Positions 1 to 39,095 of a stretch of 39,816 nucleotides of DNA are shown here, piece after piece (within the stretch, counting starts at the first letter, position 1; every line of letters starts with the position of its first letter). Under the pieces are notes generated by a model that saw only the letters and a program-made list of their open reading frames with translations, searched no databases and was not told the origin of the DNA. Source of the DNA: Escherichia phage BA14; sequence record NC_011040.1; one strand, given 5' to 3'. Made by a program: the position numbers and the translations under genes.

Positions 1-194
1 TCTCATAGTTCATACAAAGTGTTTACCCCCTATGGCCTCCTTCAGTTCCCCAAAGAGTGCCACCCCTTATGGTAACTTATGGTTTACTTAATGTCAATCA
101 TTATGTGAGACATTGGGTGAATCATTGGGATGACCACTAGATATAGTGTGTGGGAGACCTTATGACCACTATATGTAGTCCTCTCTGTGTCCCT
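1..194. repeat. Left direct terminal repeat (exact copy of 39623-39816)
   Basis: Bases 1-194 are identical to 39623-39816 when read from the sequence; T7-family genomes carry terminal direct repeats of this size. Confidence 0.95.
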
Positions 195-352: not shown

Positions 353-375
353 TTATACGACTCACTATTGAGAAT
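353..375 (+). promoter_or_regulatory. Phage RNAP promoter, T7 phiOL-like (cttatACGACTCACTATTgagaa)
   Basis: Matches T7-type promoter core -13 to -1; downstream initiating region is GAGAA rather than GGGAGA, so probably weak. Confidence 0.55.
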
Positions 376-1811: not shown

Positions 1812-2912
1812 ATGAACTACACCGACATTCAGGCACGTCTGGCAATCATCAAGTCCCTCCCGATTAGCGAACTGGACAAGCGCCAGACTCTTCTGGTTGC
1901 ACTGGCTGCTGACATCGTGAACGGTGAGACAAGCGATGGCAACGACACTGAAGGCTCAAATGGCTTGGAGTATCAGGACTGGTGGAACACCTTGGGCGCT
2001 CTCATGCGTGATGCAGGTTTCCGCATGTTGGGTAATGGTCACTTCAGTGCGGCCTACTCGCACGAAATGTTACCGGGCCGAGTCATCAAGGTTGGCTTTA
2101 AGAAAGAGGATTCAGGCGCAGCATACACTGCATTCTGTAGGATGCACCAAGGCCGAGCGGGTATCCCTAACGTCTATCACGTAGCACGTCATGCAGGTTG
2201 CTATACGGTTGTTCTTGACAAGCTGGTAGCATGTGACCGCGATAATTATGACCATGAGGTATACGCTGACCTCGCACGTTACTTTGTGGAGTCGGATTGC
2301 CATGACGCAAGCGACTTTGCACCGGGTGACTACGAGTTCATTGAGACCTGCCAGCTTATCCGCAAGTTCTTCAAAGGGATTGCATCGTTTGACATGCACA
2401 GCGGGAACATTATGTTCTCTGAAGATGGCACACCATACATCACTGACCCGGTTAGCTTCTCACATGACCGTGAACGTGAGGACGGCTTCCCTCTGGACCC
2501 GGATGCACTGATTGCCGAGGTCGAGGCAATAGCTAACGAGCGCATGATTGAACGTTGTCGCAACCGCAAGGCCAAGCGTGACCCTAACGGAACCTTTCAG
2601 GTTAACCACAAGGCCGCAATGAAACGCCGCAAGCGCAACCGTAAGCTGCGTGCCAAACGTGGTGCCGAGGTTGCACAGCACTTTGTACAGCGTAGACATG
2701 AACAAAAGCAGGAACTAAGGGACGCTATGAGGGCGCAAGATTGGATGGGTGCGCACAACTGGCACAACATGTGGTTACACAACAACAATGCAGACGTAAT
2801 CATGATTGACAAGGTGAAAGCCTTTGAGTGGAAACAGGCAGAACGCATGGCTCTTATGCAATGCCGCTCACTTCCAATCGACAAGTTACTTGACGCACAA
2901 CTGCAAGGCTGA
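1812..2912 (+). CDS. 0.7: Serine/threonine protein kinase, host shutoff (gp0.7)
   Basis: 366 aa; conserved blocks GNGHFSAAYSH, RVIKVGFKKEDSGAAYTAFCRM, HSGNIMFS and YITDPVSFS match T7 gp0.7 as I recall it. Confidence 0.9.
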   Translation: MNYTDIQARLAIIKSLPISELDKRQTLLVALAADIVNGETSDGNDTEGSNGLEYQDWWNTLGALMRDAGFRMLGNGHFSAAYSHEMLPGRVIKVGFKKEDSGAAYTAFCRMHQGRAGIPNVYHVARHAGCYTVVLDKLVACDRDNYDHEVYADLARYFVESDCHDASDFAPGDYEFIETCQLIRKFFKGIASFDMHSGNIMFSEDGTPYITDPVSFSHDREREDGFPLDPDALIAEVEAIANERMIERCRNRKAKRDPNGTFQVNHKAAMKRRKRNRKLRAKRGAEVAQHFVQRRHEQKQELRDAMRAQDWMGAHNWHNMWLHNNNADVIMIDKVKAFEWKQAERMALMQCRSLPIDKLLDAQLQG

Positions 2913-2926
2913 TAAGGTGTATCTTC

Positions 2927-2951
2927 AAGGTCGGCACTGACTGCTGGCCTT
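2927..2951 (+). promoter_or_regulatory. RNase III-type hairpin upstream of gene 1 (R1 position)
   Basis: AAGGTCGGCA-ctgac-TGCTGGCCTT forms a 10-bp stem with G-U pairs; 35 nt upstream of the RNAP start. Confidence 0.5.
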
Positions 2952-2985
2952 TATAGATAAACTTTCTTAACAACGTGAGGCAACA

Positions 2986-5637
2986 ATGACTAACGTAATC
3001 AACGCACCAAAGAATGACTTCTCTGACATCGCTAATGCAATCCAGCCGTACAACATTCTGGCTGACCATTACGGTGCACAGCTTGCAGCTACGCAGCTTG
3101 AGTTGGAGCATGAAGCTCACACTGAGGGCGAGAAGCGTTTCCTTAAGGCGATGGAACGTCAAATCAAAGCGGGTGAGTTCGGTGATAACGCAGTGGCTAA
3201 ACCGCTCCTGTCATCCCTCGCACCAAAGTTCATCGAAGCGTGGAACACTTGGTTCACTGAAGTTGAAGCGAAGCGTGGCAAGCGTCCAGTGGCCTACAAT
3301 CTGGTACAGAAGGTTGCACCCGAAGCGGCTGCTTTCATCACACTTAAGGTCACACTCGCTTGCTTGACGAAAGAAGAGTTCACCAACCTGCAATCAGTCG
3401 CTACTAAGATTGGTCGTAGCATTGAAGATGAACTGCGTTTCGGTCGCATCCGTGACGAAGAAGCGAAGCACTTTAAGAACCACGTACAGGAGGCACTGAA
3501 CAAGCGCGTTGGTATCGTCTACAAGAAAGCATTCATGCAAGCCGTAGAAGGCAAGATGTTAGACGCTGGTCAACTGCAAACCAAGTGGACTACATGGACA
3601 CCTGAAGAATCAATTCACGTTGGTGTGCGCATGTTGGAACTGCTCATCGGGTCTACTGGTCTCGTTGAGTTACACCGACCGTTTGCTGGTAACGTTGAGA
3701 AGGATGGCGAGTACATTCAACTGACCGAACAATACGTTGACCTGTTATCTAAGCGTGCTGGTGCACTGGCTGCAATTGCTCCGATGTACCAACCATGTGT
3801 AGTTCCTCCGAAGCCTTGGACGAGTCCGGTCGGTGGTGGCTATTGGGCTGCTGGTCGCAAGCCTCTCTCTCTGGTTCGCACTGGTAGCAAGAAGGGACTT
3901 GAGCGTTACAACGATGTGTATATGCCTGAAGTTTACAAGGCGGTGAACATCGCACAGAATACTCCTTGGAAGATTAACAAGAAGGTTCTGGCAGTGGTCA
4001 ACGAGATTGTGAACTGGAAGCATTGCCCGGTTGACGATGTACCTGCTCTCGAACGTGGTGAACTGCCTATCAAACCTGAAGACATCGACACGAACGAAGC
4101 GGCTCTGAAAGCGTGGAAGAAAGCGGCCTCCGCAATCTATCGCAAAGAGAAAGCACGAGTTTCTCGCCGCATGAGCATGGAGTTCATGTTAGGTCAGGCC
4201 AATAAGTTCGCACAGTTCAAAGCTATCTGGTTCCCGATGAATATGGACTGGCGCGGTCGAGTGTATGCGGTCCCAATGTTTAACCCGCAAGGCAACGACA
4301 TGACCAAAGGCTTGCTGACGCTCGCTAAAGGTAAACCAATCGGTGTCGATGGGTACTACTGGCTGAAGATTCACGGTGCTAACACTGCTGGTGTGGACAA
4401 GGTGGACTTCGCTGAACGTATCAAGTTCATTGATGATAACCATGAGAACATCATGAGCGTTGCGGCTGACCCTATCGCTAACACTTGGTGGGCTGAACAA
4501 GATTCTCCGTTCTGCTTCCTCGCATTCTGCTTTGAGTATGCAGGAGTCCAGCACCACGGGATGAAATACAACTGCTCTCTTCCGCTGGCGTTTGATGGTA
4601 GCTGCTCCGGTATTCAGCACTTCTCCGCAATGCTTCGTGATGAAATTGGTGGTCGCGCTGTTAACTTACTGCCGAGCAAGGAAGTCCAAGACATCTACCG
4701 CATCGTAGCGGAACGTGTCAACGAGATTCTGAAGCAAGATGTAATCAATGGCACCGACAACGAAGTCGAAATCGTGACCAATAAGGACACTGGCGAAATC
4801 ACTGAGAAGCTCAAGCTGGGAACTAAGGAACTGGCTGGTCAATGGTTAGCATACGGTGTTACTCGTAAGGTGACTAAGCGTTCCGTTATGACCTTGGCGT
4901 ATGGTTCCAAAGAGTACGGCTTCCGTGACCAAGTGCTAGAGGATACCATTCAGCCAGCTATCGACGATGGCAAGGGCTTGATGTTCACTCAACCGAACCA
5001 AGCGGCTGGCTACATGGCTAAACTGATTTGGAACGCAGTAACGGTGACAGTGGTCGCAGCGGTTGAAGCAATGAACTGGCTGAAGTCTGCGGCTAAACTT
5101 CTGGCTGCTGAAGTAAAGGACAAGAAGACCAAAGAGGTTCTCCGTAAGCGCTGTGCGGTACATTGGGTTACTCCTGATGGCTTCCCGGTCTGGCAGGAAT
5201 ACAAGAAGCCAGTACAGACCCGCTTGAACCTGATGTTCTTAGGCCAGATTCGTCTACAGCCTACCGTGAACACCAACAAGGATAGCGGAATTGACGCACG
5301 TAAGCAGGAGTCAGGCATTGCACCTAACTTTGTCCACTCAATGGATGGTAGCCACCTCCGCATGACCGTGGTGCGCTCCTATGAGGTCTACGGTGTGGAA
5401 TCGTTCGCACTGATTCACGACTCCTTTGGTACTATCCCTGCTGATGCTGGCAACCTGTTCAAAGCAGTGCGTGAAACGATGGTCAACACTTACGAAGAGA
5501 ACGATGTACTTGCAGACTTCTATGAGCAATTTGCTGACCAGTTGCACGAATCACAGCTTGACAAGATGCCTGAGATGCCAGCTAAAGGTTCTCTGGACCT
5601 GCAAGAAATCCTGAAGTCAGACTTTGCGTTTGCCTAA
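2986..5637 (+). CDS. 1: Single-subunit DNA-directed RNA polymerase (gp1)
   Basis: 883 aa, near-collinear with T7 RNAP as I recall it (e.g. AIWFPMNMDWRGRVYAV, FDGSCSGIQHFSAML, specificity-loop region QPTVNTNKDSGIDARKQESG, C-terminal FAFA). Confidence 0.98.
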   Translation: MTNVINAPKNDFSDIANAIQPYNILADHYGAQLAATQLELEHEAHTEGEKRFLKAMERQIKAGEFGDNAVAKPLLSSLAPKFIEAWNTWFTEVEAKRGKRPVAYNLVQKVAPEAAAFITLKVTLACLTKEEFTNLQSVATKIGRSIEDELRFGRIRDEEAKHFKNHVQEALNKRVGIVYKKAFMQAVEGKMLDAGQLQTKWTTWTPEESIHVGVRMLELLIGSTGLVELHRPFAGNVEKDGEYIQLTEQYVDLLSKRAGALAAIAPMYQPCVVPPKPWTSPVGGGYWAAGRKPLSLVRTGSKKGLERYNDVYMPEVYKAVNIAQNTPWKINKKVLAVVNEIVNWKHCPVDDVPALERGELPIKPEDIDTNEAALKAWKKAASAIYRKEKARVSRRMSMEFMLGQANKFAQFKAIWFPMNMDWRGRVYAVPMFNPQGNDMTKGLLTLAKGKPIGVDGYYWLKIHGANTAGVDKVDFAERIKFIDDNHENIMSVAADPIANTWWAEQDSPFCFLAFCFEYAGVQHHGMKYNCSLPLAFDGSCSGIQHFSAMLRDEIGGRAVNLLPSKEVQDIYRIVAERVNEILKQDVINGTDNEVEIVTNKDTGEITEKLKLGTKELAGQWLAYGVTRKVTKRSVMTLAYGSKEYGFRDQVLEDTIQPAIDDGKGLMFTQPNQAAGYMAKLIWNAVTVTVVAAVEAMNWLKSAAKLLAAEVKDKKTKEVLRKRCAVHWVTPDGFPVWQEYKKPVQTRLNLMFLGQIRLQPTVNTNKDSGIDARKQESGIAPNFVHSMDGSHLRMTVVRSYEVYGVESFALIHDSFGTIPADAGNLFKAVRETMVNTYEENDVLADFYEQFADQLHESQLDKMPEMPAKGSLDLQEILKSDFAFA

Positions 5638-5644
5638 CGGAATC

Positions 5645-5667
5645 TAATACGACTCACTATTGGGAGA
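5645..5667 (+). promoter_or_regulatory. Phage RNAP promoter TAATACGACTCACTATTGGGAGA
   Basis: Full 23-bp match to T7-family consensus except T at -1; transcript begins with a GGGAGACCC...GGGTTTCCC 5' stem-loop. Confidence 0.85.
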
Positions 5668-5727
5668 CCCTTGGGGTTTCCCTACTTTAAGATAACTTTA
5701 AGTTTAACTTTAAGAGGAAACATAATC

Positions 5728-6285
5728 ATGTTTACTTTCATCACTTCAGTAGGCGCTCTCGTATCAACCATTCTTGCAGCAACATACTATAATCGTTCAA
5801 AGGTATTTCTCACTAAGCTAATCAAAGAAGAGAAGAACTCTCATGCACTCAAAGAGAGACTTGAAGATGGATGGCGAGAGAAGCAGGAACTAGCTGGTCG
5901 AATCCGTACCTTAGAGTTCGAACAACAATATGACATGTCGAACCAACGAGAACTCATTGAGCGTCTACGTGCTGAGGCAGTGGAGTACCGCAAGGAACTT
6001 AAAGAAGCCAAGAAGATTATCCGTGAGTATACACACAGTGACATCACGTCTATCAAGTTTACTGCTCACATCCCGGATGCTGGATGGAAGCGCACTGAGT
6101 TCAAGCTGGGTCTTGGCTCGTGTGGTAAGCAAGTCACATGTCTACATTGGGTTGAACAAGCCGACCGCTATCTGCTGACACAGACGTGCACTGACGGTGA
6201 GCGCAAAGAGTTCACCTACTATAAGAAAGATGTAGCGGGTCGCATTGAGATTGCACGTAAGGTTGCAGACAATACGACTCACTAA
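5728..6285 (+). CDS. Hypothetical membrane-anchored coiled-coil protein (gene 1.05 position)
   Basis: 185 aa from ATG 5728 preceded by AGAGGAAAC RBS and a TTAACTTTA epsilon-like motif; N-terminal TM helix, charged heptad-rich middle, Cys-containing C-terminus; sits between gene 1 and gene 1.1. Confidence 0.7.
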   Translation: MFTFITSVGALVSTILAATYYNRSKVFLTKLIKEEKNSHALKERLEDGWREKQELAGRIRTLEFEQQYDMSNQRELIERLRAEAVEYRKELKEAKKIIREYTHSDITSIKFTAHIPDAGWKRTEFKLGLGSCGKQVTCLHWVEQADRYLLTQTCTDGERKEFTYYKKDVAGRIEIARKVADNTTH

Positions 6286-6292
6286 TGGGAAA
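6270..6292 (+). promoter_or_regulatory. Phage RNAP promoter cAATACGACTCACTAATGGGAAA (phi1.1-like)
   Basis: T7-family promoter core; the stop codon of the upstream ORF (6283-6285) lies inside it. Confidence 0.8.
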
Positions 6293-6300
6293 CACTGAAA

Positions 6301-6343
6301 GTTAAACTCAAGGTCATCACTTCTGGTGGCCTTCATGATTAAC
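6301..6343 (+). promoter_or_regulatory. RNase III-type processing hairpin (R1.1 position)
   Basis: Lower stem GTTAA/TTAAC, internal loop, upper stem AAGGTCAT/GTGGCCTT; same element recurs at 6821 and 13571. Confidence 0.6.
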
Positions 6344-6376
6344 TGTCATTAACTATACACACAAGGAAACAACATT

Positions 6377-6526
6377 ATGCGTACCAACTTCGAACCAACT
6401 ACCAAGCGCAACAACGTAATCAATGAACACGGTGCTGAATGGCAGGAACGTAAAGACCGCATGAAGAAACGCCACAAGACACAACGTGGCAACGCTGAGA
6501 AACGTAACTGGAAGGAGGCACTCTAA
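6377..6526 (+). CDS. 1.1: Small basic protein gp1.1
   Basis: 49-aa ORF (below the ORF-track cutoff) with RBS AAGGAAAC; highly basic, as for T7 gp1.1; stop overlaps the gene 1.2 start (TAATG). Confidence 0.6.
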   Translation: MRTNFEPTTKRNNVINEHGAEWQERKDRMKKRHKTQRGNAEKRNWKEAL

Positions 6527-6798
6527 TGGGTCGCTTATACAGTGGTAACTTAATAGCATACAAAGACGCTATCGAACGACTCAAAGAAGACCACGATGTG
6601 AGTGTGGTCGTTGAGACTTTCCGCTATGAGAACTATGCGAGGATGCGCTGGGTATCAGGTGAGACTCTTCGAGTGGTCTTGCGGAATGGATTAGTGTTAA
6701 CCTCCAAGTGTTTCGAACAGGACGATGAAGACGTTCGCTGCAATGCACAGACTGAATGGCTTCGTAAGGTACACAGTGACCTGAAGCACTGGAAGTAA
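6526..6798 (+). CDS. 1.2: gp1.2, inhibitor of host dGTP triphosphohydrolase
   Basis: 90 aa; N-terminus MGRLYSGNL and C-terminus DLKHWK match T7 gp1.2 as I recall it. Confidence 0.8.
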   Translation: MGRLYSGNLIAYKDAIERLKEDHDVSVVVETFRYENYARMRWVSGETLRVVLRNGLVLTSKCFEQDDEDVRCNAQTEWLRKVHSDLKHWK

Positions 6799-6818
6799 TA
6801 CGACTCACTAATGCGAGA
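6796..6818 (+). promoter_or_regulatory. Phage RNAP promoter TAATACGACTCACTAATGCGAGA (phi1.3-like)
   Basis: T7-family promoter core overlapping the gene 1.2 stop; initiating region GCGAGA is atypical. Confidence 0.7.
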
Positions 6819-6820
6819 GA

Positions 6821-6862
6821 GCTAAACTCAAGGTCATCTATACGGTGGCCTTTGTGATTAAC
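6821..6862 (+). promoter_or_regulatory. RNase III-type processing hairpin (R1.3 position)
   Basis: GCTAAACTCAAGGTCATctatacGGTGGCCTTTGTGATTAAC, second copy of the 6301 element. Confidence 0.6.
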
Positions 6863-6899
6863 TTTTGTTTACTTAATAACCAACAATAGGAGTTCCATC

Positions 6900-7976
6900 A
6901 TGGAAATCACATTCAAGACTAACCCTTTTAAAGCTGTATCCTACGTTGAGTCTGCCATTAAGAAAGCACTCGACAAAGCTGGCTACCTGATTGCTGACAC
7001 TAAGCATGATGGTGTACGTGGTAACATCGTGGTTGACAATACGGCTGACTGCCTGTGGCTATCCCGTGTCTCCAAGACCATCCCCGCGCTTGAGCACCTT
7101 AATGGGTTCGACCAACGCTGGGCTAATGTTCTCAAAGATGACCGCTGGATTTTCCCTGATGGCTTCATGCTTGATGGTGAACTGATGGTCAAAGGCGTAG
7201 ACTTCAACACAGGGTCTGGCCTACTGCGTACCAAGTGGCTCAAGAAGACAAACTGTGGATTTGATATTGGTGGAGTAGAGCCTCTCAAGGGGAGTAAAGT
7301 AGACTTCTGCTTAGACCCTAAGAAACTTAAGGTTGTCCTGTATGCTGCTATGCCGTATCACGATATGGTAGAAGGCAAAGAGTATGGCGTTATGTCCCTC
7401 CTGATGCAAGAGCATGTGCGTTACCTCATTCCGGTTCTTAGTGAACACTTCCCGGAAATCACTTGGGAACTATCTGAAGCCAAGGAAGTCTACGACATGG
7501 TAGAACTTCAGGAACTCTACGAGAAAGCTCGTGCTGAAGGTCATGAAGGTCTGGTTGTCAAAGACCCGCTGGAAGTCTACAAGCGTGGTAAGAAGTCTGG
7601 CTGGTGGAAGATGAAACCTGAGAATGAAGCTGATGGTGTTATCGTTGGCCTCAATTGGGGTACTCCGGGTCTCGCTAATGAAGGCAAAGTGATTGGCTTC
7701 GAGGTTCTCCTTGAGTCAGGTCGCGTAGTTAACGCCAACAACATTAGCCAAGAGTTGATGGACGAGTTCACCGAGAAGGTAAAGGAGAAGACACTAAGTG
7801 ACTGTGGGTTCTTCAGTCCATACGGAATCGGAGACAATGATGCCTGTACGCGTAACCCTTATGAGGGCTGGCAGTGTCAGGTAGCCTACATGGAGGAAAC
7901 ACCAGACGGTTCTCTGCGTCACCCATCGTTCGTTATGTTCCGTGGTGTCGAGTCAGACCCAACGGTCAAGATGTAA
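6900..7976 (+). CDS. 1.3: ATP-dependent DNA ligase (gp1.3)
   Basis: 358 aa; adenylation motif TKHDGVRG near the N-terminus; length and position as T7 ligase. Confidence 0.95.
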   Translation: MEITFKTNPFKAVSYVESAIKKALDKAGYLIADTKHDGVRGNIVVDNTADCLWLSRVSKTIPALEHLNGFDQRWANVLKDDRWIFPDGFMLDGELMVKGVDFNTGSGLLRTKWLKKTNCGFDIGGVEPLKGSKVDFCLDPKKLKVVLYAAMPYHDMVEGKEYGVMSLLMQEHVRYLIPVLSEHFPEITWELSEAKEVYDMVELQELYEKARAEGHEGLVVKDPLEVYKRGKKSGWWKMKPENEADGVIVGLNWGTPGLANEGKVIGFEVLLESGRVVNANNISQELMDEFTEKVKEKTLSDCGFFSPYGIGDNDACTRNPYEGWQCQVAYMEETPDGSLRHPSFVMFRGVESDPTVKM

Positions 7977-7986
7977 ATCAACATAT

Positions 7987-8020
7987 GGTCAGACTTTCGG
8001 GTCTGGCCTTTTCGTGTTTC
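7987..8020 (+). terminator. Intrinsic terminator after ligase (TE position)
   Basis: GGTCAGAC-tttcgg-GTCTGGCC 8-bp stem followed by TTTTCGTGTTTC. Confidence 0.6.
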
Positions 8021-8041
8021 TATTAGACTCACTATGGAGGA
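8019..8041 (+). promoter_or_regulatory. Phage RNAP promoter, divergent (tcTATTAGACTCACTATGGAGGA)
   Basis: Core GACTCACTAT retained, upstream half degenerate, initiating GGAGG as in T7 phi1.5/phi1.6 as I recall them. Confidence 0.5.
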
Positions 8042-8049
8042 ACAACCTC

Positions 8050-8130
8050 ATGCTATTTCTAATTATTGCTAGCGTTGCTGCCACGTTTGCCTTCGTTATC
8101 ATTGACGACAACTGCTGGCCTGATTGCTAA
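8050..8130 (+). CDS. Hypothetical 26-aa hydrophobic peptide
   Basis: ATG 9 nt after a GGAGG RBS; MLFLIIASVAATFAFVIIDDNCWPDC; lies between two phage promoters. Confidence 0.4.
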   Translation: MLFLIIASVAATFAFVIIDDNCWPDC

Positions 8131-8150
8131 TACGACTCACCTATGGAGGA
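8128..8150 (+). promoter_or_regulatory. Phage RNAP promoter-like sequence with altered -4 to -1 (TAATACGACTCACctatGGAGGA)
   Basis: Perfect -17 to -5 match, but four substitutions in the -4 to -1 melting region. Confidence 0.4.
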
Positions 8151-8157
8151 AACACTT

Positions 8158-8421
8158 ATGTTACGACTACACTTCAACAAATCAAATGGCATCTTCTCTG
8201 CCCGTGGCGCTGACCGTTCAACCGTTCTGGCCTCTGAGAAACACGCAGTCATTCCTAAAGTGCTTGGCTCGACCATTGAGTTGGCACCTCGTGTTCACGC
8301 TGTGATTACGACTGGCTTATATAAAGAAGCGACCACTGGCTCCCGGCCTTTCATTCCGGTTCTCGTCACCCGTTTCCCTAAAGTCCGTCTGGTGATTGCA
8401 CGTATCAAGGAGGTGTTCTAA
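8158..8421 (+). CDS. Hypothetical protein (gene 1.6 position)
   Basis: 87 aa from ATG 8158 with RBS GGAGGAAAC; the longer ORF-track start at 8143 lies inside the promoter and lacks an RBS. Confidence 0.6.
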   Translation: MLRLHFNKSNGIFSARGADRSTVLASEKHAVIPKVLGSTIELAPRVHAVITTGLYKEATTGSRPFIPVLVTRFPKVRLVIARIKEVF

Positions 8422-8792
8422 TGTCTGGTTGCATCGCATGTTTAGAGAAAGATGACCGCTACCCGCATACCTGCAAAACAAAGCACACCAGTGAGTGTAC
8501 AATCTGGAATGGTGCTGGTGTATGTAGTTGCACTAAGTCAGACAAACCACAAGATATAGAGGGTGTTCGGACTCCGAGCCACTATATGTTGTTTGATGAC
8601 ATTGAGGCTATTGAAGTGATTGCCCGGTCGATGACCCGCGAACAGTTCAAAGGGTACTGCTTAGGGAACATCCTTAAGTACCGCCTCCGTGCTGGTAAGA
8701 AATCCGAACTGGCATTCTTAGAGAAGGACATGGCGAAAGCTGGGTTCTACGGTGAACTGTACGAGAAACATAAAGGTAAGTGCTATGCTTAA
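8421..8792 (+). CDS. gene 1.7-position protein with N-terminal Cys cluster and a phage-typical C-terminal module
   Basis: 123 aa, RBS AAGGAGG; six Cys in the first 40 residues; the C-terminal pattern TPSHY...IEVI...LGNILKYRLRAGKK resembles a widespread small phage domain (DUF3310-like, from memory). Confidence 0.65.
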   Translation: MSGCIACLEKDDRYPHTCKTKHTSECTIWNGAGVCSCTKSDKPQDIEGVRTPSHYMLFDDIEAIEVIARSMTREQFKGYCLGNILKYRLRAGKKSELAFLEKDMAKAGFYGELYEKHKGKCYA

Positions 8793-8883
8793 ACCTAGCG
8801 AATGGTGTGAGCGTATGTTTGAAAAGACAGGCAACACCGACTACCTTGAATTATATAATCACTGGAAGGAGAGAGGACAATGA
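8785..8883 (+). CDS. Small protein (gene 1.8 position)
   Basis: 32-aa ORF bridging the 1.7 stop and the gene 2 start with overlapping start/stop codons. Confidence 0.45.
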
Positions 8884-9071
8884 GCACTCTGAATAAAGGG
8901 TCACTGGTAAACGGTGACAAGAAGTTCTTCGCTACGGTAGAAGGCCAAGGCCAATCGTTCGAAGTACCTGTGTTCGCTACGTCTCTTGAAGAGGCCAATG
9001 AGTTAGCTGAGTGGCAATACGTCCCTGCTGGCTTCGCTGTAACACGCATCCGTCCAGACCGTAAGGTTTAA
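8880..9071 (+). CDS. 2: gp2, inhibitor of host RNA polymerase
   Basis: 63 aa; [19 protein letters not shown] matches T7 gp2 as I recall it. Confidence 0.85.
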
Positions 9072-9091
9072 TAGGACTCACTAATGGGAGA
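9069..9091 (+). promoter_or_regulatory. Phage RNAP promoter TAATAGGACTCACTAATGGGAGA (phi2.5-like)
   Basis: T7-family core overlapping the gene 2 stop; 5' leader GGGAGAcactaacgTTTCCC can fold. Confidence 0.75.
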
Positions 9092-9139
9092 CACTAACGT
9101 TTCCCACTTTTAACTTTCAGAAACTAAAGGAGAATCATT

Positions 9140-9838
9140 ATGGCATTCGCAAAACGTAAAGTATTCACTTCCGCTCGTGGTGTTGCTGAACCTTACTGCT
9201 ATCTGGCAAAGCCGGACTTCGGTAGTGGTGACTTCAAGAACGAACGTGGTGTCTACAAAGTATCACTGACTGTATCCAACGACGACCCTCGCTGTCAGAA
9301 AATGATTGACGAGATTGTCGAAGCCCACGAAACGGATTACGCTGCACGTCTGGAAGAGTACGAAGCGAACCCGCCGAAGGTAGTTAAGGGCAAGAAACCA
9401 CTGAAGCCATACGTTGGCGACATGCCGTTCATGGATAACGAAGACGGAACCACAACGTTCAACTTCAAGTGCTACGGCTCGTTCACTGACAAGAAGACTG
9501 GTGAGAACAAACCAATCGACTTGGCTATCGTGGACTCCAAAGGTAAGCGCATTCGTGGTGAGCGTCCAGCTATCTCTGGTGGCTCTGAACTGAAGATTAA
9601 ATACACTCTGTTCCCTTACGGTTGGTCTGCTGTGGCAGGTGCTTCCGTTAAGCTGCAACTGGATTCCGTGATGCTGATTAAGCTGGTCGAGTTCGGTGGT
9701 GGTGATGACGATTGGGGTGATGAAATCGAAGAAGACGGCTACGAAGCTGATGAAGCACAGACCCGCAAGCCTCAAAACGACTCTGGCTGGAATGAAGAAC
9801 CAGAAGAGGACGACGACGACGATAGTGGTGATTTTTAA
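9140..9838 (+). CDS. 2.5: Single-stranded DNA-binding protein (gp2.5)
   Basis: 232 aa; conserved PRCQKMIDEIV and GASVKLQLDSVML blocks and an acidic C-terminal tail ending DF, as in T7 gp2.5. Confidence 0.95.
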   Translation: MAFAKRKVFTSARGVAEPYCYLAKPDFGSGDFKNERGVYKVSLTVSNDDPRCQKMIDEIVEAHETDYAARLEEYEANPPKVVKGKKPLKPYVGDMPFMDNEDGTTTFNFKCYGSFTDKKTGENKPIDLAIVDSKGKRIRGERPAISGGSELKIKYTLFPYGWSAVAGASVKLQLDSVMLIKLVEFGGGDDDWGDEIEEDGYEADEAQTRKPQNDSGWNEEPEEDDDDDSGDF

Positions 9839-10284
9839 TGGCTAAGGGTTATGCAGGTCGAGGCACTCGTGTGGGTGCCTTTCGCTCTGGCTTGGAGGAC
9901 AAGGTAAGCAAACAGCTTGAGTCAAAGAACATTAAGTTCGACTACGAGCGTTGGCGTGTACCATATGTTGTTCCTGCAAGCAACCATACCTATTGCCCGG
10001 ACTTCCTGTTACCTAATGGCATCTTTGTGGAAACCAAAGGTCTGTGGGACAGTGACGACCGTAAGAAGCACTTGCTGATTCGTGAACAGTATCCTGAACT
10101 TGATGTGCGCATCGTGTTCTCTTCTAGCCGCTCCAAGCTGTACAAAGGGTCTCCGACCAGTTATGGCGAGTGGTGTGAGAAGCATGGCATTCTGTTCGCT
10201 GACAAATTAATTCCAGTTGATTGGCTTAGAGAGCCTTCTAAGTATGAGCCATTCCCAAAATTTACAGAGGTGAAGAAGGAATGA
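9838..10284 (+). CDS. 3: Endonuclease I, Holliday junction resolvase (gp3)
   Basis: 148 aa; VGAFRSGLEDKVSKQLES and PDFLLPNGIFVETKG nearly identical to T7 gp3 as I recall it. Confidence 0.95.
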   Translation: MAKGYAGRGTRVGAFRSGLEDKVSKQLESKNIKFDYERWRVPYVVPASNHTYCPDFLLPNGIFVETKGLWDSDDRKKHLLIREQYPELDVRIVFSSSRSKLYKGSPTSYGEWCEKHGILFADKLIPVDWLREPSKYEPFPKFTEVKKE

Positions 10285-10736
10285 GTAAGGTACAATTCAA
10301 ACCACGCGCCGTGTCAGAAGCAATCTTTGTCCACTGTAGCGCAACTAAGGCGACCATGAATGTTGGTCTGCGTGAAATCCGTCAGTGGCATAAAGAACAG
10401 GTCTGGCTTGATGTGGGCTACCACTTCATTATTAGCCGTGATGGTAGAATCGAAGAAGGCCGTCCGGTCGGTGTCGTTGGGTCTCATGTGAAAGACTGGA
10501 ACAGTAAGTCAGTTGGTGTGTGCCTCGTTGGTGGTATCGACGATAAGGGCAGACACGAAGCTAACTTTACGCCAGCACAGATGCACTCTCTTAAAGAGAA
10601 ACTGGCAGACCTGCTGGACATGTATCCAGATGCAGAAGTAAAAGCGCACCACGATGTGGCTCCTAAAGCGTGTCCAAGTTTTAACTTGAGTCGCTGGCTG
10701 AAGACTGGTGAATTAGTAACAAGTGATTGGGGATAA
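10281..10736 (+). CDS. 3.5: N-acetylmuramoyl-L-alanine amidase / T7 lysozyme (gp3.5)
   Basis: 151 aa; AIFVHCSAT, REIRQWHKEQ.WLDVGYHFII, AHHDVAPKACPSF match T7 gp3.5. Confidence 0.95.
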   Translation: MSKVQFKPRAVSEAIFVHCSATKATMNVGLREIRQWHKEQVWLDVGYHFIISRDGRIEEGRPVGVVGSHVKDWNSKSVGVCLVGGIDDKGRHEANFTPAQMHSLKEKLADLLDMYPDAEVKAHHDVAPKACPSFNLSRWLKTGELVTSDWG

Positions 10737-10740
10737 GATT

Positions 10741-10830
10741 ATGATGATTATTCATGAGATGGGCATGTACGATATGATTTACCGCTGTGTATTCGTTCTG
10801 GCATTGACCTATATCTTAACTCGTAAGTAA
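10741..10830 (+). CDS. Hypothetical 29-aa hydrophobic peptide
   Basis: ORF MMIIHEMGMYDMIYRCVFVLALTYILTRK starting 5 nt after the amidase stop; weak RBS. Confidence 0.35.
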   Translation: MMIIHEMGMYDMIYRCVFVLALTYILTRK

Positions 10831-10850
10831 TAGAACTCACTATGGGAGAG
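10828..10850 (+). promoter_or_regulatory. Phage RNAP promoter TAATAGAACTCACTATGGGAGAG
   Basis: T7-family core with G at -1; transcript starts with a GGGAGA...TCTCCC stem-loop. Confidence 0.65.
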
Positions 10851-10900
10851 CCGAAAGGTTTCTCCCTTTGTTCGCTAAAATTGTATAAGGAGTAACCACT

Positions 10901-12710
<1,810 letters not shown>

Positions 12711-12790
12711 GGCCAACGATTGGTTGTTGACAACTCAATGTAATTGCCCTTGGGACGCGCCCTGTGTGTGTCCTGAGAGACAGCCTGAAT

Positions 12791-12813
12791 AAATAGAACT
12801 CACTAATGGGACA
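12791..12813 (+). promoter_or_regulatory. Phage RNAP promoter aAATAGAACTCACTAATGGGACA (phi4.3-like)
   Basis: Core ACTCACTAATGGGA; 40 nt upstream of gene 4.3. Confidence 0.65.
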
Positions 12814-12856
12814 GACATTCTGTTCCCACTTATCAATCCACTTAAGGAGAAGCACA

Positions 12857-13624: not shown

Positions 13625-13647
13625 CTATTCAACTCACTAATGGGAGA
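13625..13647 (+). promoter_or_regulatory. Phage RNAP promoter (ctattcAACTCACTAATGGGAGA)
   Basis: Core ACTCACTAATGGGAGA with degenerate upstream half; 9 nt upstream of the next ATG. Confidence 0.6.
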
Positions 13648-18157: not shown

Positions 18158-18180
18158 TAATACGACTCACTATTGAGAGG
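18158..18180 (+). promoter_or_regulatory. Phage RNAP promoter TAATACGACTCACTATTGAGAGG (phi6.5-like)
   Basis: Full T7-family match through -1; initiating GAGAGG. Confidence 0.8.
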
Positions 18181-19142: not shown

Positions 19143-20750
19143 ATGGCAAGCTCACAGAAACGTGAAGGCTTCGCTGAGAATGGTGCCAAGGCGGTGTATG
19201 ACGCATTGAAGAACGACCGGAACTCCTATGAGACCCGTGCGGAAAACTGTGCGAAGTACACCATCCCCTCGTTGTTCCCGAAGGACTCCGATAACGCCTC
19301 TACTGACTACACGACTCCGTGGCAAGCAGTGGGCGCTCGTGGTCTGAACAACTTGGCCTCTAAGCTCATGCTTGCTCTGTTCCCTATGCAGACTTGGATG
19401 AAGCTGACCATCTCTGAGTTCGAAGCGAAACAATTGGTAGCACAACCCGCTGAACTGGCGAAGGTCGAAGAAGGTCTCTCTATGGTCGAGCGAATCTTGA
19501 TGAACTACATCGAGTCAAACTCATACCGTGTGACACTCTTTGAGACCCTCAAGCAGTTGGTCGTAGCTGGTAACGCTCTGCTGTACATTCCTGAACCTGA
19601 AGGTACTTACAATCCCATGAAGTTATACCGTCTGTCTTCTTATGTTGTCCAACGAGACGCATTCGGCACGGTACTACAGATTGTGACCTTGGATAAGACT
19701 GCCTATGCAGCACTTCCAGAAGACGTAAGGAACTCTATGGACTCCGGTCAGGAACATAAGGGTGACGAGATGATTGATGTGTACACTCACATTTATCTCG
19801 ATGAGGAATCTGGAGAGTACCTGAAGTACGAAGAGATTGATGGCGTTGAAGTCGAAGGCACAGATGCTTCTTATCCGGTGGACGCTTGTCCGTATATCCC
19901 GGTTCGCATGGTGCGCATTGATGGAGAGTCATATGGTCGTTCGTACTGTGAGGAATACTTAGGTGACTTACGTTCACTTGAGAACCTTCAGGAAGCAATC
20001 GTCAAGATGTCCATGATTAGTGCAAAGGTTATCGGCTTGGTTAACCCTGCTGGTATCACACAGGTTCGTCGCTTAACGAAAGCACAAACAGGTGACTTTG
20101 TGTCTGGTCGTCCAGAAGACATCTCGTTCCTTCAGTTGGAAAAGGCTGCTGACTTCTCTGTAGCGAAAGCTGTAAGTGAACAGATTGAAGGCCGACTGTC
20201 CTATGCCTTTATGTTGAACTCTGCGGTACAGCGTACTGGTGAGCGTGTGACAGCCGAAGAGATTCGTTATGTTGCATCTGAACTGGAAGATACCCTTGGT
20301 GGTGTCTATTCAATTCTCTCACAGGAACTTCAGTTACCTATGGTTCGTGTCCTACTGAAACAACTTCAAGCAACCAATCAGATTCCTGAGTTACCGAAAG
20401 AGGCCGTTGAGCCTACTATCAGTACCGGGATGGAAGCATTGGGTCGTGGTCAAGACCTCGATAAGCTGGAACGATGTATTGCTGCATGGTCTGCTCTTGC
20501 TCCTATGCAGAATGACCCGGACATCAACATTGCGACCATTAAGTTGCGCATTGCGAACGCTATCGGCATCGACACTTCTGGTATCCTTAAGACACCTGAA
20601 GAGAAGCAACAGGAAATGGCTGAGTCCGCTCAAGGCACTGCTCTGGAGAACGCTGCTGCGTCTGCTGGTGCTGGTGCTGGTGCACTGGCTACTGCAAGTC
20701 CTGAGAACATGGAAGCTGCTGCTGCACAGGCTGGTATGGTTCCTAATTAA
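19143..20750 (+). CDS. 8: Portal (head-tail connector) protein gp8
   Basis: 535 aa; long collinear identity with T7 gp8 (e.g. YTIPSLFPKDSDNASTDY.TPWQAVGARGLNNLASKLMLALFPMQTWM). Confidence 0.97.
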   Translation: MASSQKREGFAENGAKAVYDALKNDRNSYETRAENCAKYTIPSLFPKDSDNASTDYTTPWQAVGARGLNNLASKLMLALFPMQTWMKLTISEFEAKQLVAQPAELAKVEEGLSMVERILMNYIESNSYRVTLFETLKQLVVAGNALLYIPEPEGTYNPMKLYRLSSYVVQRDAFGTVLQIVTLDKTAYAALPEDVRNSMDSGQEHKGDEMIDVYTHIYLDEESGEYLKYEEIDGVEVEGTDASYPVDACPYIPVRMVRIDGESYGRSYCEEYLGDLRSLENLQEAIVKMSMISAKVIGLVNPAGITQVRRLTKAQTGDFVSGRPEDISFLQLEKAADFSVAKAVSEQIEGRLSYAFMLNSAVQRTGERVTAEEIRYVASELEDTLGGVYSILSQELQLPMVRVLLKQLQATNQIPELPKEAVEPTISTGMEALGRGQDLDKLERCIAAWSALAPMQNDPDINIATIKLRIANAIGIDTSGILKTPEEKQQEMAESAQGTALENAAASAGAGAGALATASPENMEAAAAQAGMVPN

Positions 20751-20770
20751 TACGACTCACTAATGGGAGA
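20748..20770 (+). promoter_or_regulatory. Phage RNAP promoter TAATACGACTCACTAATGGGAGA (phi9-like)
   Basis: 23-bp T7-family promoter overlapping the portal stop codon. Confidence 0.85.
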
Positions 20771-20824
20771 GACACTACGTCCTCCCTTTGAGTTCTAAAC
20801 TTTTATTATCAAAGGAGATACAAT

Positions 20825-21739: not shown

Positions 21740-21762
21740 TAATACGACTCACTATTGGGAGA
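21740..21762 (+). promoter_or_regulatory. Phage RNAP promoter TAATACGACTCACTATTGGGAGA (phi10-like)
   Basis: Perfect family consensus 4 nt after the gene 9 stop; drives the capsid gene. Confidence 0.9.
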
Positions 21763-21930
21763 GAGATGGAATCCCACGATTGGAGGTCACACAGACCATT
21801 AAGTTGCTGTGGCATCTGGCTTCCGGGCTTGTCGTGGGAATGCTCCCTTTGAGTGATACACAATGAGAACCAACTCGTTTCAAGTAGTACCTCACACATT
21901 AAACTTTAAATCAACAGAAGGAGATTCAAC

Positions 21931-26216: not shown

Positions 26217-26239
26217 CAATACGACTCACTATTGGGAAG
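26217..26239 (+). promoter_or_regulatory. Phage RNAP promoter cAATACGACTCACTATTGGGAAG (phi13-like)
   Basis: T7-family promoter between gene 12 and gene 13. Confidence 0.8.
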
Positions 26240-33555: not shown

Positions 33556-33578
33556 CAATACGACTCACTATTGGGAAG
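33556..33578 (+). promoter_or_regulatory. Phage RNAP promoter cAATACGACTCACTATTGGGAAG (phi17-like)
   Basis: T7-family promoter 2 nt after the gp16 stop; leader forms a GGGAAG...CTTCCC stem-loop. Confidence 0.8.
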
Positions 33579-33626
33579 GCTCTCACAGCTTCCCTCCTAT
33601 TATACCTAACCGAAAGGAGGCTACAG

Positions 33627-39072: not shown

Positions 39073-39095
39073 TAATACGACTCACTATTGGGAAG
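39073..39095 (+). promoter_or_regulatory. Phage RNAP promoter TAATACGACTCACTATTGGGAAG (phiOR-like)
   Basis: T7-family promoter downstream of gene 19, oriented toward the right end. Confidence 0.85.

What the first reader, a model, noticed from the sequence alone, without database searches (positions are those of the whole stretch)
5645..5667. Phage promoter family differs from T7 consensus at -1 and shows 5' leader stem-loops
Across 16 promoters the -17 to -5 region is essentially T7 consensus, but -1 is T (CACTATTGGG or CACTAATGGG) rather than the A I recall for T7. Several transcripts begin with an inverted repeat that can pair the initiating GGGAGA with a downstream TCTCCC or TTTCCC (5662-5681, 10844-10866, 33573-33594), like the T7 phi10 leader hairpin. 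The six late-type promoters (18158, 20748, 21740, 26217, 33556, 39073) are the closest to consensus.
Basis: partly seen in the sequence, partly recalled or inferred. Interest (0 to 1): 0.3.

Follow-up and report, generated by a model that had tools for sequence, protein, structure and literature searches.

The report
Berlinvirus-type T7-like phage promoters
These are the 16 promoters that a T7-like phage's own RNA polymerase uses. The single-base difference from the T7 promoter and the hairpins at the start of several transcripts are real, but both are typical of this phage group and already annotated in its close relatives.

Summary
The window is a complete T7-like genome of the Berlinvirus group (285P, Kvp1, Berlin, Yepe2). 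It carries exactly 16 copies of a 23-bp phage-RNA-polymerase promoter, all on the + strand. They score 22.9-38.6 bits; the next-best site scores 8.3.

Positions -17 to -5 match T7. T7's own phi2.5 has T at -1.

The -1 T is clade-wide: 114 T, 11 G and 1 A in 126 distinct relative instances, and 12/12 in Helsettvirus fPS-9. The same 23-mers are annotated as promoters in the Kvp1, Yepe2 and fPS-9 GenBank records. A 2024 paper showed a 94%-identical polymerase (PP74) active in vitro on TAATACGACTCACTATTGGGAA.

Six leaders form strong hairpins starting at +1 (0.38 expected by chance). A seventh, phi10, keeps the terminal pairing around a roughly 80-nt insertion. T7 has equivalents at phi3.8, phi10 and phi17.

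The claim that the six late promoters are closest to consensus holds only partly: 5645 ties for best.

Verdict: real, correctly read, ordinary and already known.

The parts
2986..5637 (+). Gene 1: T7-like single-subunit RNA polymerase (883 aa), the enzyme that reads these promoters
   Evidence: ORF. 76% identical to T7 RNAP, with R746, N748, R756, Q758, V237, W422 and H784 conserved. 99% identical to 285P gp1 and 94% to PP74 RNAP.
353..375 (+). Promoter, left-end (phiOL-equivalent): TTATACGACTCACTATT|GAGAAT
   Evidence: Matrix score 31.6. Orthologue at Kvp1 440.
5645..5667 (+). Promoter phi1.05 (T7 phi1.1A position), the finding's own site: TAATACGACTCACTATT|GGGAGA; lies just downstream of the gene 1 ORF, whose listed end is 5637
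   Evidence: score 38.6, joint best. Identical 23-mer annotated 'Kvp1 promoter phi1.05' and Yepe2 'phi1.1'.
6270..6292 (+). Promoter phi1.1: CAATACGACTCACTAAT|GGGAAA
   Evidence: Score 37.1. Identical to the annotated Kvp1 phi1.1.
6796..6818 (+). Promoter phi1.3: TAATACGACTCACTAAT|GCGAGA
   Evidence: Score 35.1. Identical to the annotated Kvp1 phi1.3.
8020..8042 (+). Promoter phi1.5: CTATTAGACTCACTATG|GAGGAA (-1 is G)
   Evidence: Score 22.9. Orthologues annotated in the same register in Kvp1 and Yepe2.
8128..8150 (+). Promoter phi1.6: TAATACGACTCACCTAT|GGAGGA
   Evidence: Score 26.5. Yepe2 annotates its phi1.6 (TAATACGACTCACATAT|GGAGGA) at the equivalent place.
9069..9091 (+). Promoter phi2.5: TAATAGGACTCACTAAT|GGGAGA
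   Evidence: Score 36.1. Identical to the annotated Kvp1 phi2.5.
10828..10850 (+). Promoter phi3.8/4A: TAATAGAACTCACTATG|GGAGAG (-1 is G)
   Evidence: Score 25.9. Identical 23-mer annotated in Kvp1 (phi4A) and Yepe2 (phi3.8).
12791..12813 (+). Promoter phi4c-equivalent: AAATAGAACTCACTAAT|GGGACA
   Evidence: Score 28.3. Orthologues in 285P and Berlin.
13625..13647 (+). Promoter phi4.7: CTATTCAACTCACTAAT|GGGAGA
   Evidence: Score 30.8. Same downstream sequence as the annotated Kvp1 phi4.7.
18158..18180 (+). Promoter phi6.5: TAATACGACTCACTATT|GAGAGG
   Evidence: Score 35.7. Orthologue of Kvp1 phi6.5.
20748..20770 (+). Promoter phi9: TAATACGACTCACTAAT|GGGAGA
   Evidence: Score 38.2. Identical to Kvp1 phi9.
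21740..21762 (+). Promoter phi10: TAATACGACTCACTATT|GGGAGA
   Evidence: Score 38.6. Identical to Kvp1 phi10A. Aligned with T7 phi10, the only difference between -17 and +6 is at -1.
26217..26239 (+). Promoter phi13: CAATACGACTCACTATT|GGGAAG
   Evidence: Score 36.6. Identical to Kvp1 phi13.
33556..33578 (+). Promoter phi17: CAATACGACTCACTATT|GGGAAG
   Evidence: Score 36.6. Identical to Kvp1 phi17.
39073..39095 (+). Promoter, right-end (phiOR / Kvp1 'phi19.2'): TAATACGACTCACTATT|GGGAAG
   Evidence: Score 37.5. Identical to Kvp1 phi19.2.
5662..5682 (+). 5'-terminal leader hairpin of the phi1.05 transcript: GGGAGACCC/GGGUUUCCC
   Evidence: -15.5 kcal/mol, z -2.9. All orthologues fold, with different stems, for example GGGAGCC/GGCUUCC.
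9086..9105 (+). 5'-terminal leader hairpin of the phi2.5 transcript
   Evidence: -10.9 kcal/mol, z -4.6. Conserved in 7 orthologue variants. The only leader hairpin that also looks terminator-like.
10845..10865 (+). 5'-terminal leader hairpin of the phi3.8 transcript (GAAA loop). It would gain one G-C pair (10844-10866) if transcription began at the -1 G.
   Evidence: -10.3 kcal/mol. Occupies the same promoter position as the T7 phi3.8 hairpin. One orthologue has the compensated stem GGGAUGACC/GGUUGUCCC.
12808..12826 (+). 5'-terminal leader hairpin of the phi4c transcript
   Evidence: -9.8 kcal/mol, z -2.9. Conserved in 5 variants.
20765..20786 (+). 5'-terminal leader hairpin of the phi9 transcript
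   Evidence: -12.2 kcal/mol, z -2.1. Conserved in 8 variants.
33573..33594 (+). 5'-terminal leader hairpin of the phi17 transcript
   Evidence: -9.3 kcal/mol. Orthologues carry A-U to G-C double changes: GGGAAGGCU/AGCUUCCC versus GGGGAGGCU/AGCUCCCC.
21757..21847 (+). phi10 leader: terminal pairing GGGAG (21757-21761) with CUCCC (21843-21847), enclosing an inserted long hairpin
   Evidence: MFE -36.1 kcal/mol, z only -1.4. In the alignment the insertion replaces the loop and 3' arm of the short hairpin that Kvp1, 285P and Berlin carry here.

Best explanation
The 16 sites are the middle and late promoters read by this phage's own T7-like RNA polymerase (gene 1, 2986-5637). The genome belongs to the Berlinvirus group of T7 relatives.

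Inferred mechanism, by homology to T7: the polymerase binds duplex DNA from -17 to -5 through its AT-rich loop and specificity loop. Both the bases and the contacting residues are unchanged from T7. It then melts -4 to -1 and starts RNA synthesis at the G that follows.

In this clade the melted 'TATA' box reads TATT or TAAT, so -1 is T. This is a lineage-typical variant of the least constrained promoter position. It has probably co-evolved with changes in the polymerase's intercalating hairpin and next to H784.

About seven of the 16 transcripts fold their first bases (GGGAGA, GGGAAG) into a stem with a downstream YYUCCC. This leaves no single-stranded 5' end. That most likely protects these mRNAs from 5'-end-dependent decay by RppH and RNase E, as proposed for comparable T7 leaders.

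Shown here: sequence family, register, clade distribution, polymerase conservation, and hairpin excess and conservation. Inferred: the start site, the effect of -1 T on activity, and the stabilising role of the hairpins.
For: Promoter family:
- 16 sites on one strand are cleanly separated from background.
- Identical 23-mers in the same register are annotated as phage promoters in Kvp1, Yepe2 and fPS-9.
- Logos showing that Kvp1 promoters resemble those of phage Berlin were published in 2008 (PMC2579914).

Polymerase:
- It is 76% identical to T7 RNAP, with R746, N748, R756 and Q758 unchanged and the AT-rich loop nearly so (AKRGKRPVA versus T7 AKRGKRPTA). This matches the T7-like -17 to -5.

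Position -1:
- -1 is T 114, G 11, A 1, and +1 is G 126/126, in distinct promoter instances from Berlinvirus- and Helsettvirus-type DNA.
- -1 varies between clades. It is A in T7 (16/17). It is T in T7 phi2.5, and T7-like contigs have TATT|GGGAGA at phi2.5. It is C in contig L074, and mixed in L019, L071 and L072.
- The -1 T clades (Berlinvirus, fPS-9, L094) share the hairpin motif RP(F/Y)AGN(V/I)EKD and Q786M. T7-type enzymes have RQNAGVVGQD and Q786.
- Functional proof for the type: PP74 RNAP (94% identical) transcribed from TAATACGACTCACTATTGGGAA in vitro and was the most active of 26 enzymes tested (PMC11475235).

Hairpins:
- 6 of 16 leaders have a 5'-terminal hairpin of -9 kcal/mol or stronger, against 0.38 expected. 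None of 1000 shuffles reached 6, and 1 of 32 non-promoter GGGARR sites did.
- Orthologues keep the hairpin with different stem sequences.
- T7 has hairpins at phi3.8, phi10 and phi17.
- RppH and RNase E need single-stranded 5' ends, which explains stabilisation by 5' structure (review PMC3997798).
Against: - No start-site or expression data exist for this genome, so +1 is assigned by homology and by the register that GenBank annotators used.
- Two promoters (8020, 10828) read TATG|G. For these it is unknown whether initiation is at the fixed-distance G or one base upstream.
- Nine leaders lack a terminal hairpin, so the hairpin is not a general requirement.
- The formal covariation counts were weak because the MAFFT alignments were out of structural register.
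- The link between -1 T and polymerase substitutions rests on few independent lineages and is confounded by phylogeny.
Confidence: 0.88

Rival explanations
1. Position -1 is a true specificity determinant. Berlinvirus-type polymerases require T (or tolerate G) and reject A, so a single base pair makes this promoter set functionally orthogonal to T7 promoters. It would not merely be a neutral or weakly preferred clade variant.
For: - Only 1 A among 126 distinct instances, although A is one mutation away at every site.
[quoted passage not shown] Among promoters of active enzymes, only the T7 promoter could differ from TAATACGACTCACTATTGGG by one base (Table 1). That identification is my inference; the figure is not readable here.
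- Clade-specific substitutions occur in the intercalating hairpin and at Q786M.
Against: - The paper's text does not name the one-base variant.
- T7-type enzymes naturally use -1 T (T7 phi2.5; TATT|GGGAGA in T7-like contigs).
- Phages with T7-type hairpins show A, T and C mixed at -1 (L019).
- G occurs at -1 in about 9% of clade instances, so the position is not strictly read.
- -1 lies in the melted region, where T7-type enzymes are generally held to make few base-specific contacts (own knowledge; not checked here).
Confidence: 0.25
2. The alignment register is wrong. Transcription would start elsewhere, for example one base upstream in the TATG promoters or at a different G, so the 'T at -1' would really be another position.
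For: - In promoter 10828 the hairpin would gain one G-C pair (10844-10866) if the -1 G were transcribed.
- No start-site mapping exists.
Against: - +1 is G in 126/126 instances at a fixed distance from the invariant ACTCAC.
- The terminal stems of the six strong short hairpins all begin exactly at that G.
- The Yepe2, Kvp1 and fPS-9 GenBank annotations use the same register.
- T7-type enzymes set the start by distance from the binding region (established knowledge; not tested here).
Confidence: 0.07
3. The leader hairpins do something other than protect the 5' end. They could be terminators or attenuators for upstream read-through, RNase III sites, or aids to promoter clearance.
For: - The phi2.5 leader hairpin plus CTTTTAAC meets a terminator-like pattern.
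- The fPS-9 annotators marked two leader hairpins as terminators overlapping promoters.
- Several stems are followed by CUUUG.
Against: - Only 1 of the 6 hairpins meets the terminator pattern.
- The stems are short (7-9 bp), too short for typical RNase III sites. Separate, longer hairpins of the kind that serve as RNase III sites in T7 (own knowledge) lie further downstream, at 6310-6333 and 6830-6852.
- The conserved property is that pairing starts at nucleotide +1, which matters for 5'-end access rather than for termination.
- The phi10 insertion preserved the terminal pairing.
Confidence: 0.12
4. The repeated motif and the hairpins are chance or compositional artefacts.
For: None.
Against: - 0.00 matches expected in shuffles for the 23-mer.
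- There is a 14-bit gap between the 16th site and the best background site.
- Hairpin excess: 0 of 1000 shuffles reached the observed count.
Confidence: 0.01

Closest known systems
Annotated phage promoters of Berlinvirus relatives (Kluyvera phage Kvp1 FJ194439, Yersinia phage Yepe2 EU734170, phage Berlin) and of Helsettvirus fPS-9 (LT960606)
   Same: Same 23-bp element in the same register and at the same map positions. Nine of the window's 16 23-mers are identical to annotated Kvp1 promoters and one more to an unannotated Kvp1 site. -1 is T or G.
   Different: Nothing essential. There are small differences in promoter number: Kvp1 has a phi11 that the window lacks, and the window has a phi4c-type site that was not found in Kvp1. 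The window's phi10 leader carries an insertion.
Bacteriophage T7 class II/III promoters (consensus TAATACGACTCACTATAGGGAGA)
   Same: -17 to -5 identical in consensus. +1 to +6 is GGGAGA. Same genome positions. Same TAT/TAA dimorphism at -2. Polymerase 76% identical with the same specificity-loop residues.
   Different: -1 is T (14/16) or G (2/16) here, against A in 16/17 T7 promoters. The six late promoters are not identical to one another as they are in T7.
T7 phi2.5 promoter (TAATACGACTCACTATT|AGGGAA)
   Same: T at -1 within a genuine T7 promoter. In T7-like contigs L036 and L054 the phi2.5 site reads TATT|GGGAGA, identical to the consensus here.
   Different: T7 phi2.5 starts with A (cites it as adenosine-initiating). 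All promoters here have G at +1.
Pectobacterium phage PP74 RNA polymerase and its promoter TAATACGACTCACTATTGGGAA (Biotechnol J 2024, PMC11475235)
   Same: Berlinvirus. Polymerase 94% identical to the window's. Promoter identical through +5 to the window's 39073 promoter and to the -16..+5 part of 26217 and 33556. Experimentally active in cell-free and purified in vitro transcription.
   Different: Different phage and host. PP74's AT-rich loop reads AKSGPRP rather than AKRGKRP.
T7 phi10, phi3.8 and phi17 leader stem-loops, and 5'-terminal stabilising stem-loops such as ompA
   Same: The stem starts at +1 and pairs GGGAGA with YYUCCC. Hairpins occur at the same promoters (phi3.8, phi17, and phi10 in most relatives), with similar energies of -9 to -15 kcal/mol. 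5' structure blocks RppH and RNase E access (PMC3997798).
   Different: More promoters carry one here (also phi1.05, phi2.5, phi4c, phi9). No stability measurement exists for this phage.

Membership tests
T7-group (Studiervirinae) single-subunit RNA polymerase promoter | A roughly 23-bp element (-17 to +6) repeated many times in one genome, far above chance | tested here: met
   16 sites at 22.9-38.6 bits versus 8.3 for the best other site. 0.00 expected in shuffles.
T7-group (Studiervirinae) single-subunit RNA polymerase promoter | All copies are co-oriented with the genes and lie at the T7-map positions (after gene 1; before 1.1, 1.3, 1.5, 1.6, 2.5, 3.8/4, 4.7, 6.5, 9, 10, 13, 17; near both ends) | tested here: met
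   All are on the + strand. Orthologous positions are annotated in Kvp1, Yepe2 and T7.
T7-group (Studiervirinae) single-subunit RNA polymerase promoter | A cognate T7-like RNA polymerase is encoded in the same genome, with specificity-loop residues consistent with the -7 to -11 bases | tested here: met
   Gene 1 at 2986-5637. R746, N748, R756 and Q758 are identical to T7, and -12 to -5 are identical to T7.
T7-group (Studiervirinae) single-subunit RNA polymerase promoter | Transcription initiates at the purine at +1, a fixed distance from the binding region | not testable with these tools
   Indirect only: G at +1 in 126/126 instances, and hairpin stems begin at that G.
T7-group (Studiervirinae) single-subunit RNA polymerase promoter | The cognate polymerase transcribes from the element in vitro | not testable with these tools
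   Shown in the literature for the 94%-identical PP74 enzyme on TAATACGACTCACTATTGGGAA. Not shown for this genome.
T7 promoter in the strict sense (Teseptimavirus consensus TAATACGACTCACTATAGGGAGA) | A at -1 (TATA|G) | tested here: not met
   0 of 16 have A at -1 (T 14, G 2). T7 has A in 16/17.
Berlinvirus/Helsettvirus-type promoter (TAATACGACTCACTAWT|GGGAGA) | T at -1 in most copies, G in a minority, with the upstream half identical to T7 | tested here: met
   Window 14 T and 2 G. Clade 114 T, 11 G, 1 A. fPS-9 12/12 T.
Berlinvirus/Helsettvirus-type promoter (TAATACGACTCACTAWT|GGGAGA) | Sequence identity to promoters annotated in member genomes | tested here: met
   The 23-mers at 5645, 6270, 6796, 9069, 10828, 20748, 21740, 26217, 33556 and 39073 are identical to Kvp1 sites.
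5'-terminal stabilising stem-loop (T7 phi10-leader / ompA type) | The stem begins at, or within one nucleotide of, the transcript's first base | tested here: met
   Six leaders pair from +1 with dG -9.3 to -15.5 kcal/mol. phi10 keeps terminal pairing over a long insert.
5'-terminal stabilising stem-loop (T7 phi10-leader / ompA type) | More frequent than chance and conserved in orthologues despite sequence change | tested here: met
   6 observed versus 0.38 expected, 0 of 1000 shuffles. Orthologue stems differ yet all fold. Alignment-based pair counts give only weak covariation.
5'-terminal stabilising stem-loop (T7 phi10-leader / ompA type) | Lengthens mRNA half-life by blocking 5'-end-dependent decay | not testable with these tools
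   Rests on established knowledge (PMC3997798). No measurement exists for this phage.
Intrinsic (hairpin plus T-run) terminator | G+C-rich stem followed directly by a T-rich tract | tested here: not met
   Of the five leader hairpins inside the scanned 5000-24000 region, only the phi2.5 one (9085-9106) is flagged; the phi17 hairpin at 33573 lies outside it and was not scanned. The true TE-like (7987-8008) and Tphi-like (23120-23155) terminators are elsewhere.

The most novel reading that the evidence does not exclude
Position -1 may act as a one-way orthogonality switch. Berlinvirus- and Helsettvirus-type polymerases would reject A at -1, and hence T7 promoters, while T7-type enzymes accept T. 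The discrimination would arise from the clade-specific intercalating hairpin (RPFAGN(V/I)EKD versus RQNAGVVGQD) and/or Q786M next to H784. A single base pair in the melted region, rather than the specificity-loop contacts, would then separate two otherwise identical promoter sets.
Probability: 0.2. Interest if true: 0.4.

Novelty: already known. Interest (0 to 1): 0.1.

Why it matters
It matters little beyond correct annotation. The promoter set, its register and the -1 T are already recorded in GenBank entries of close relatives and in a 2008 paper. A near-identical polymerase-promoter pair was validated in vitro in 2024. The leader hairpins repeat a known T7 design.

The one point of practical interest is for synthetic biology. 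If the -1 base alone blocks cross-recognition between T7-type and Berlinvirus-type polymerases, it would offer a minimal orthogonal polymerase-promoter pair and a handle on how the melted -4 to -1 region is read. That remains untested.

Tried and rejected
- Identity of the window: I recalled it as coliphage BA14. NC_011040 and EU734171 are not in the collection. EU734172 turned out to be EcoDS1, so my accession memory was wrong. The identity remains unverified.
- Literature: Chen & Schneider 2005 (PMC1275584) is not held. Komura 2018 gave no -1 data in the passages searched. Searches for the exact promoter string in papers found only the PP74 paper and unrelated primers.
- Covariation: alignment-based tests on the phi1.05 and phi17 leaders were weakened because MAFFT put the 5' ends out of structural register. 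I relied on folding each orthologue separately.
- Rfam: no family matched anywhere in the window.
- Terminator reading of the leader hairpins: rejected for all but phi2.5.
- Site 17707 (GACTACTGCTGACTACT|GGCACA) appeared in a loose mismatch scan but fails the matrix. Rejected as a promoter.
- The mitochondrial RNAP structure paper shows only that the -1 template base stacks on the first base pair in a homologous enzyme. It is not evidence about T7-type base preference.

Full report
**What the window is.** The 39,816-bp window is a complete T7-like phage genome with 194-bp terminal direct repeats at 1-194 and 39623-39816. Its DNA and its RNA polymerase are closest to the Berlinvirus genus. The polymerase is 99% identical in amino acids to 285P gp1, 97-98% to Yepe2 and LPST144, 94% to PP74 and 76% to T7. 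From memory I take it to be coliphage BA14, but I could not verify this. The accessions I recalled were absent or wrong.

**Checking the observation.** The 23-mer at 5645-5667 is TAATACGACTCACTATTGGGAGA, just downstream of the gene 1 ORF, whose listed end is 5637. A weight matrix built from the candidate sites finds exactly 16 promoters, all on the + strand. They score 22.9-38.6 bits, and the next-best site on either strand scores 8.3. Shuffled sequence yields none. The sites start at 353, 5645, 6270, 6796, 8020, 8128, 9069, 10828, 12791, 13625, 18158, 20748, 21740, 26217, 33556 and 39073.

Positions -10 to -5 are invariant, and -17 to -11 follow T7's TAATACG. Position -1 is T in 14 promoters and G in two. 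In the annotated T7 genome, -1 is A in 16 of 17 promoters. The exception is phi2.5, TATT|AGGGAA, which has T.

**How widespread the -1 T is.** A scan of IMG/VR for ACGACTCACTATTGGGA returned 53 loci from about 22 contigs. Combined with Kvp1, Berlin, 285P, PP74, Yepe2 and fPS-9, I obtained 126 distinct promoter instances in Berlinvirus- or Helsettvirus-type DNA. Among them -1 is T 114, G 11 and A 1, and +1 is G in all 126. The sister genus Helsettvirus (fPS-9, polymerase 82.6% identical) has T in 12 of 12 annotated promoters. A contig with an 85%-identical polymerase (L094) also uses TAAT|G.

Other clades differ. T7-like contigs use A, but their phi2.5 reads TATT|GGGAGA, identical to the consensus here. 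One contig (L019) mixes A, T and C. A 75%-identity clade (L074) uses C, reading CACTAAC|GGGAGA. Contigs L071 and L072 are heterogeneous. So -1 is the position of the initiation box that varies most between T7-like lineages, and the T here is a lineage trait.

**Is it already known?** Yes. The GenBank records of Kvp1, Yepe2 and fPS-9 annotate 23-bp phage promoters in exactly this register, including the TATG|G ones. Ten of the window's 23-mers are identical to Kvp1 sites, nine of them annotated there as promoters. Lingohr et al. 2008 published logos showing that Kvp1 promoters resemble those of phage Berlin (PMC2579914). In 2024 the polymerase of the Berlinvirus PP74 was shown to transcribe from TAATACGACTCACTATTGGGAA. 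This was done in a cell-free assay and with purified enzyme, and it was the most active of 26 enzymes tested (PMC11475235).

**The polymerase.** The window's gp1 keeps the T7 residues that read -7 to -11 (R746, N748, R756, Q758). It also keeps the intercalating V237, W422 and H784, and the AT-rich loop is nearly unchanged. This fits the T7-identical upstream half of the promoter.

Clade-specific differences cluster in the flanks of the intercalating hairpin: HRPFAGNVEKDGEYIQL against T7's HRQNAGVVGQDSETIEL. Others are Q786M, F755I and S430P. The hairpin motif and Q786M recur in fPS-9 and L094, which also use -1 T. They are absent from L019, L036, L071, L072 and L074, which do not. This is a lead for co-evolution, but it rests on few independent lineages.

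**Leader hairpins.** I folded +1 to +35 of all 16 transcripts. Six have a strong hairpin that starts at the first nucleotide:
- 5662-5682: -15.5 kcal/mol
- 9086-9105: -10.9
- 10845-10865: -10.3
- 12808-12826: -9.8
- 20765-20786: -12.2
- 33573-33594: -9.3

With +1 to +6 held fixed and the rest shuffled, 0.38 such hairpins are expected, and none of 1000 trials reached six. Only 1 of 32 non-promoter GGGARR sites has one.

Orthologous leaders in relatives all fold, with different stems. Examples are phi1.05 as GGGAGACCC/GGGUUUCCC, GGGAGCC/GGCUUCC or GGGAACCC/GGGUUCUC. For phi17 the pair is GGGAAGGCU/AGCUUCCC against GGGGAGGCU/AGCUCCCC. For phi3.8 it is GGAGAGCC/GGUUUCUCC against GGGAUGACC/GGUUGUCCC. 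Alignment-based pair counts show some double changes but are blurred by misregistered alignments.

T7 has the same device at phi3.8, phi10 and phi17, with a weak one at phi2.5.

The window's phi10 leader looked like an exception. It turns out to carry a roughly 80-nt insertion where relatives have the loop and 3' arm of a short hairpin. The terminal GGGAG/CUCCC pairing is kept at 21757-21761 and 21843-21847. The same insertion is present in PP74, S523, BSP161, nasanit, PZJ0206, vB_SEqdws-315 and Serratia phage Pila.

**The late-promoter remark.** By matrix score the order is 5645 = 21740 (38.6), 20748 (38.2), 39073 (37.5), 6270 (37.1), 26217 = 33556 (36.6), 9069 (36.1), 18158 (35.7), 6796 (35.1). 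The six late-type promoters are all strong but are not the six closest to consensus. Unlike T7's class III set, they are not identical to one another.

**How it most likely works.** By homology with T7, gp1 binds -17 to -5 as duplex DNA, and its hairpin opens the duplex downstream of -5. The template -4 to -1 is fed into the active site and RNA starts at the following G. The -1 base lies in the melted segment. In a homologous mitochondrial polymerase the -1 template base stacks on the first base pair (PMC10600007), so a preference without strict recognition is plausible. That step is inference.

The terminal hairpins leave no single-stranded 5' end. RppH and RNase E both need one, which explains the long-known stabilising effect of 5' structure (PMC3997798). 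I therefore regard mRNA protection as the most likely role. Termination is unlikely, because only the phi2.5 hairpin resembles a terminator.

**What remains open.** No start-site data exist for this phage. It is unknown whether the TATG|G promoters start at the fixed-distance G or one base earlier. It is also unknown whether A at -1 is actually rejected by this polymerase. The PP74 paper says that even one nucleotide change abolished output. By elimination from its Table 1 that template was probably the T7 promoter, but the text does not say so and I could not see the figure. I give that reading about 0.2-0.25.

**Verdict.** The feature is ordinary for this phage group and already documented.

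Noticed in passing
window 21762-21846: The phi10 leader carries a roughly 80-nt insertion that folds into a long imperfect hairpin. It sits where Kvp1, 285P and Berlin have the loop and 3' arm of a short 5' hairpin, and the terminal GGGAG/CUCCC pairing is kept. The same insertion (93-100% identical) occurs at one place each in PP74, S523, BSP161, nasanit, PZJ0206, vB_SEqdws-315 and Serratia phage Pila. Its role is unknown; it could be an RNase III site.
   Followed up: partly
window 8020-8042 and 10828-10850: Two promoters read CACTATG|G, so -1 is G. About 9% of clade instances do the same. At 10828 the leader stem would gain a G-C pair if transcription began at the -1 G, so the true start is ambiguous.
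   Followed up: partly
window 6310-6333 and 6830-6852: Conserved hairpins AAGGUCAUC...GGUGGCCUU lie 23 and 17 nt downstream of the phi1.1 and phi1.3 starts. The surrounding folds are -18.1 and -17.4 kcal/mol. T7's phi1.1A and phi1.3 leaders carry similar AAGGUC...GGCCU sequences at the equivalent places, where T7's RNase III sites R1.1 and R1.3 lie (own knowledge). They are present in all relatives.
   Followed up: partly
window 7987-8008 and 23120-23155: Two strong terminator-like hairpins followed by T-runs. The first follows the ligase gene and corresponds to the TE terminator annotated in Kvp1 and Yepe2. The second (-23.6 kcal/mol) follows gene 10 and corresponds to T7's Tphi.
   Followed up: partly
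window 1-194 and 39623-39816: Exact 194-bp terminal direct repeat, the same length as annotated in Kvp1. The window is therefore a full linear genome.
   Followed up: yes
L019 (IMGVR_UViG_2595698912_000001), positions 2747-7244: A T7-like contig whose eight promoters mix A (4), T (3) and C (1) at -1, while its polymerase has the T7-type intercalating hairpin. It suggests that T7-type enzymes tolerate several bases at -1.
   Followed up: partly
L074 (IMGVR_UViG_2595698761_000001): Another T7-like clade (polymerase 75% identical) whose promoters read TAAGACTCACTAAC|GGGAGA, with C at -1. Several of its leaders have phi10-like hairpins (GGGAGACCAUAACGGUUUCCC).
   Followed up: no
L040 (IMGVR_UViG_3300034358_000001), positions 2150-2374: Three phage promoters in tandem within about 200 bp (TATT|G, TAAA|G, TAAT|G). 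The middle one is the only -1 A instance found in a Berlinvirus-like genome.
   Followed up: no
L059 (PP74 gene 1), T7 residues 93-99: PP74's AT-rich recognition loop reads AKSGPRP where the window and T7 have AKRGKRP. Yet its promoters keep the same TAATAC upstream half.
   Followed up: no
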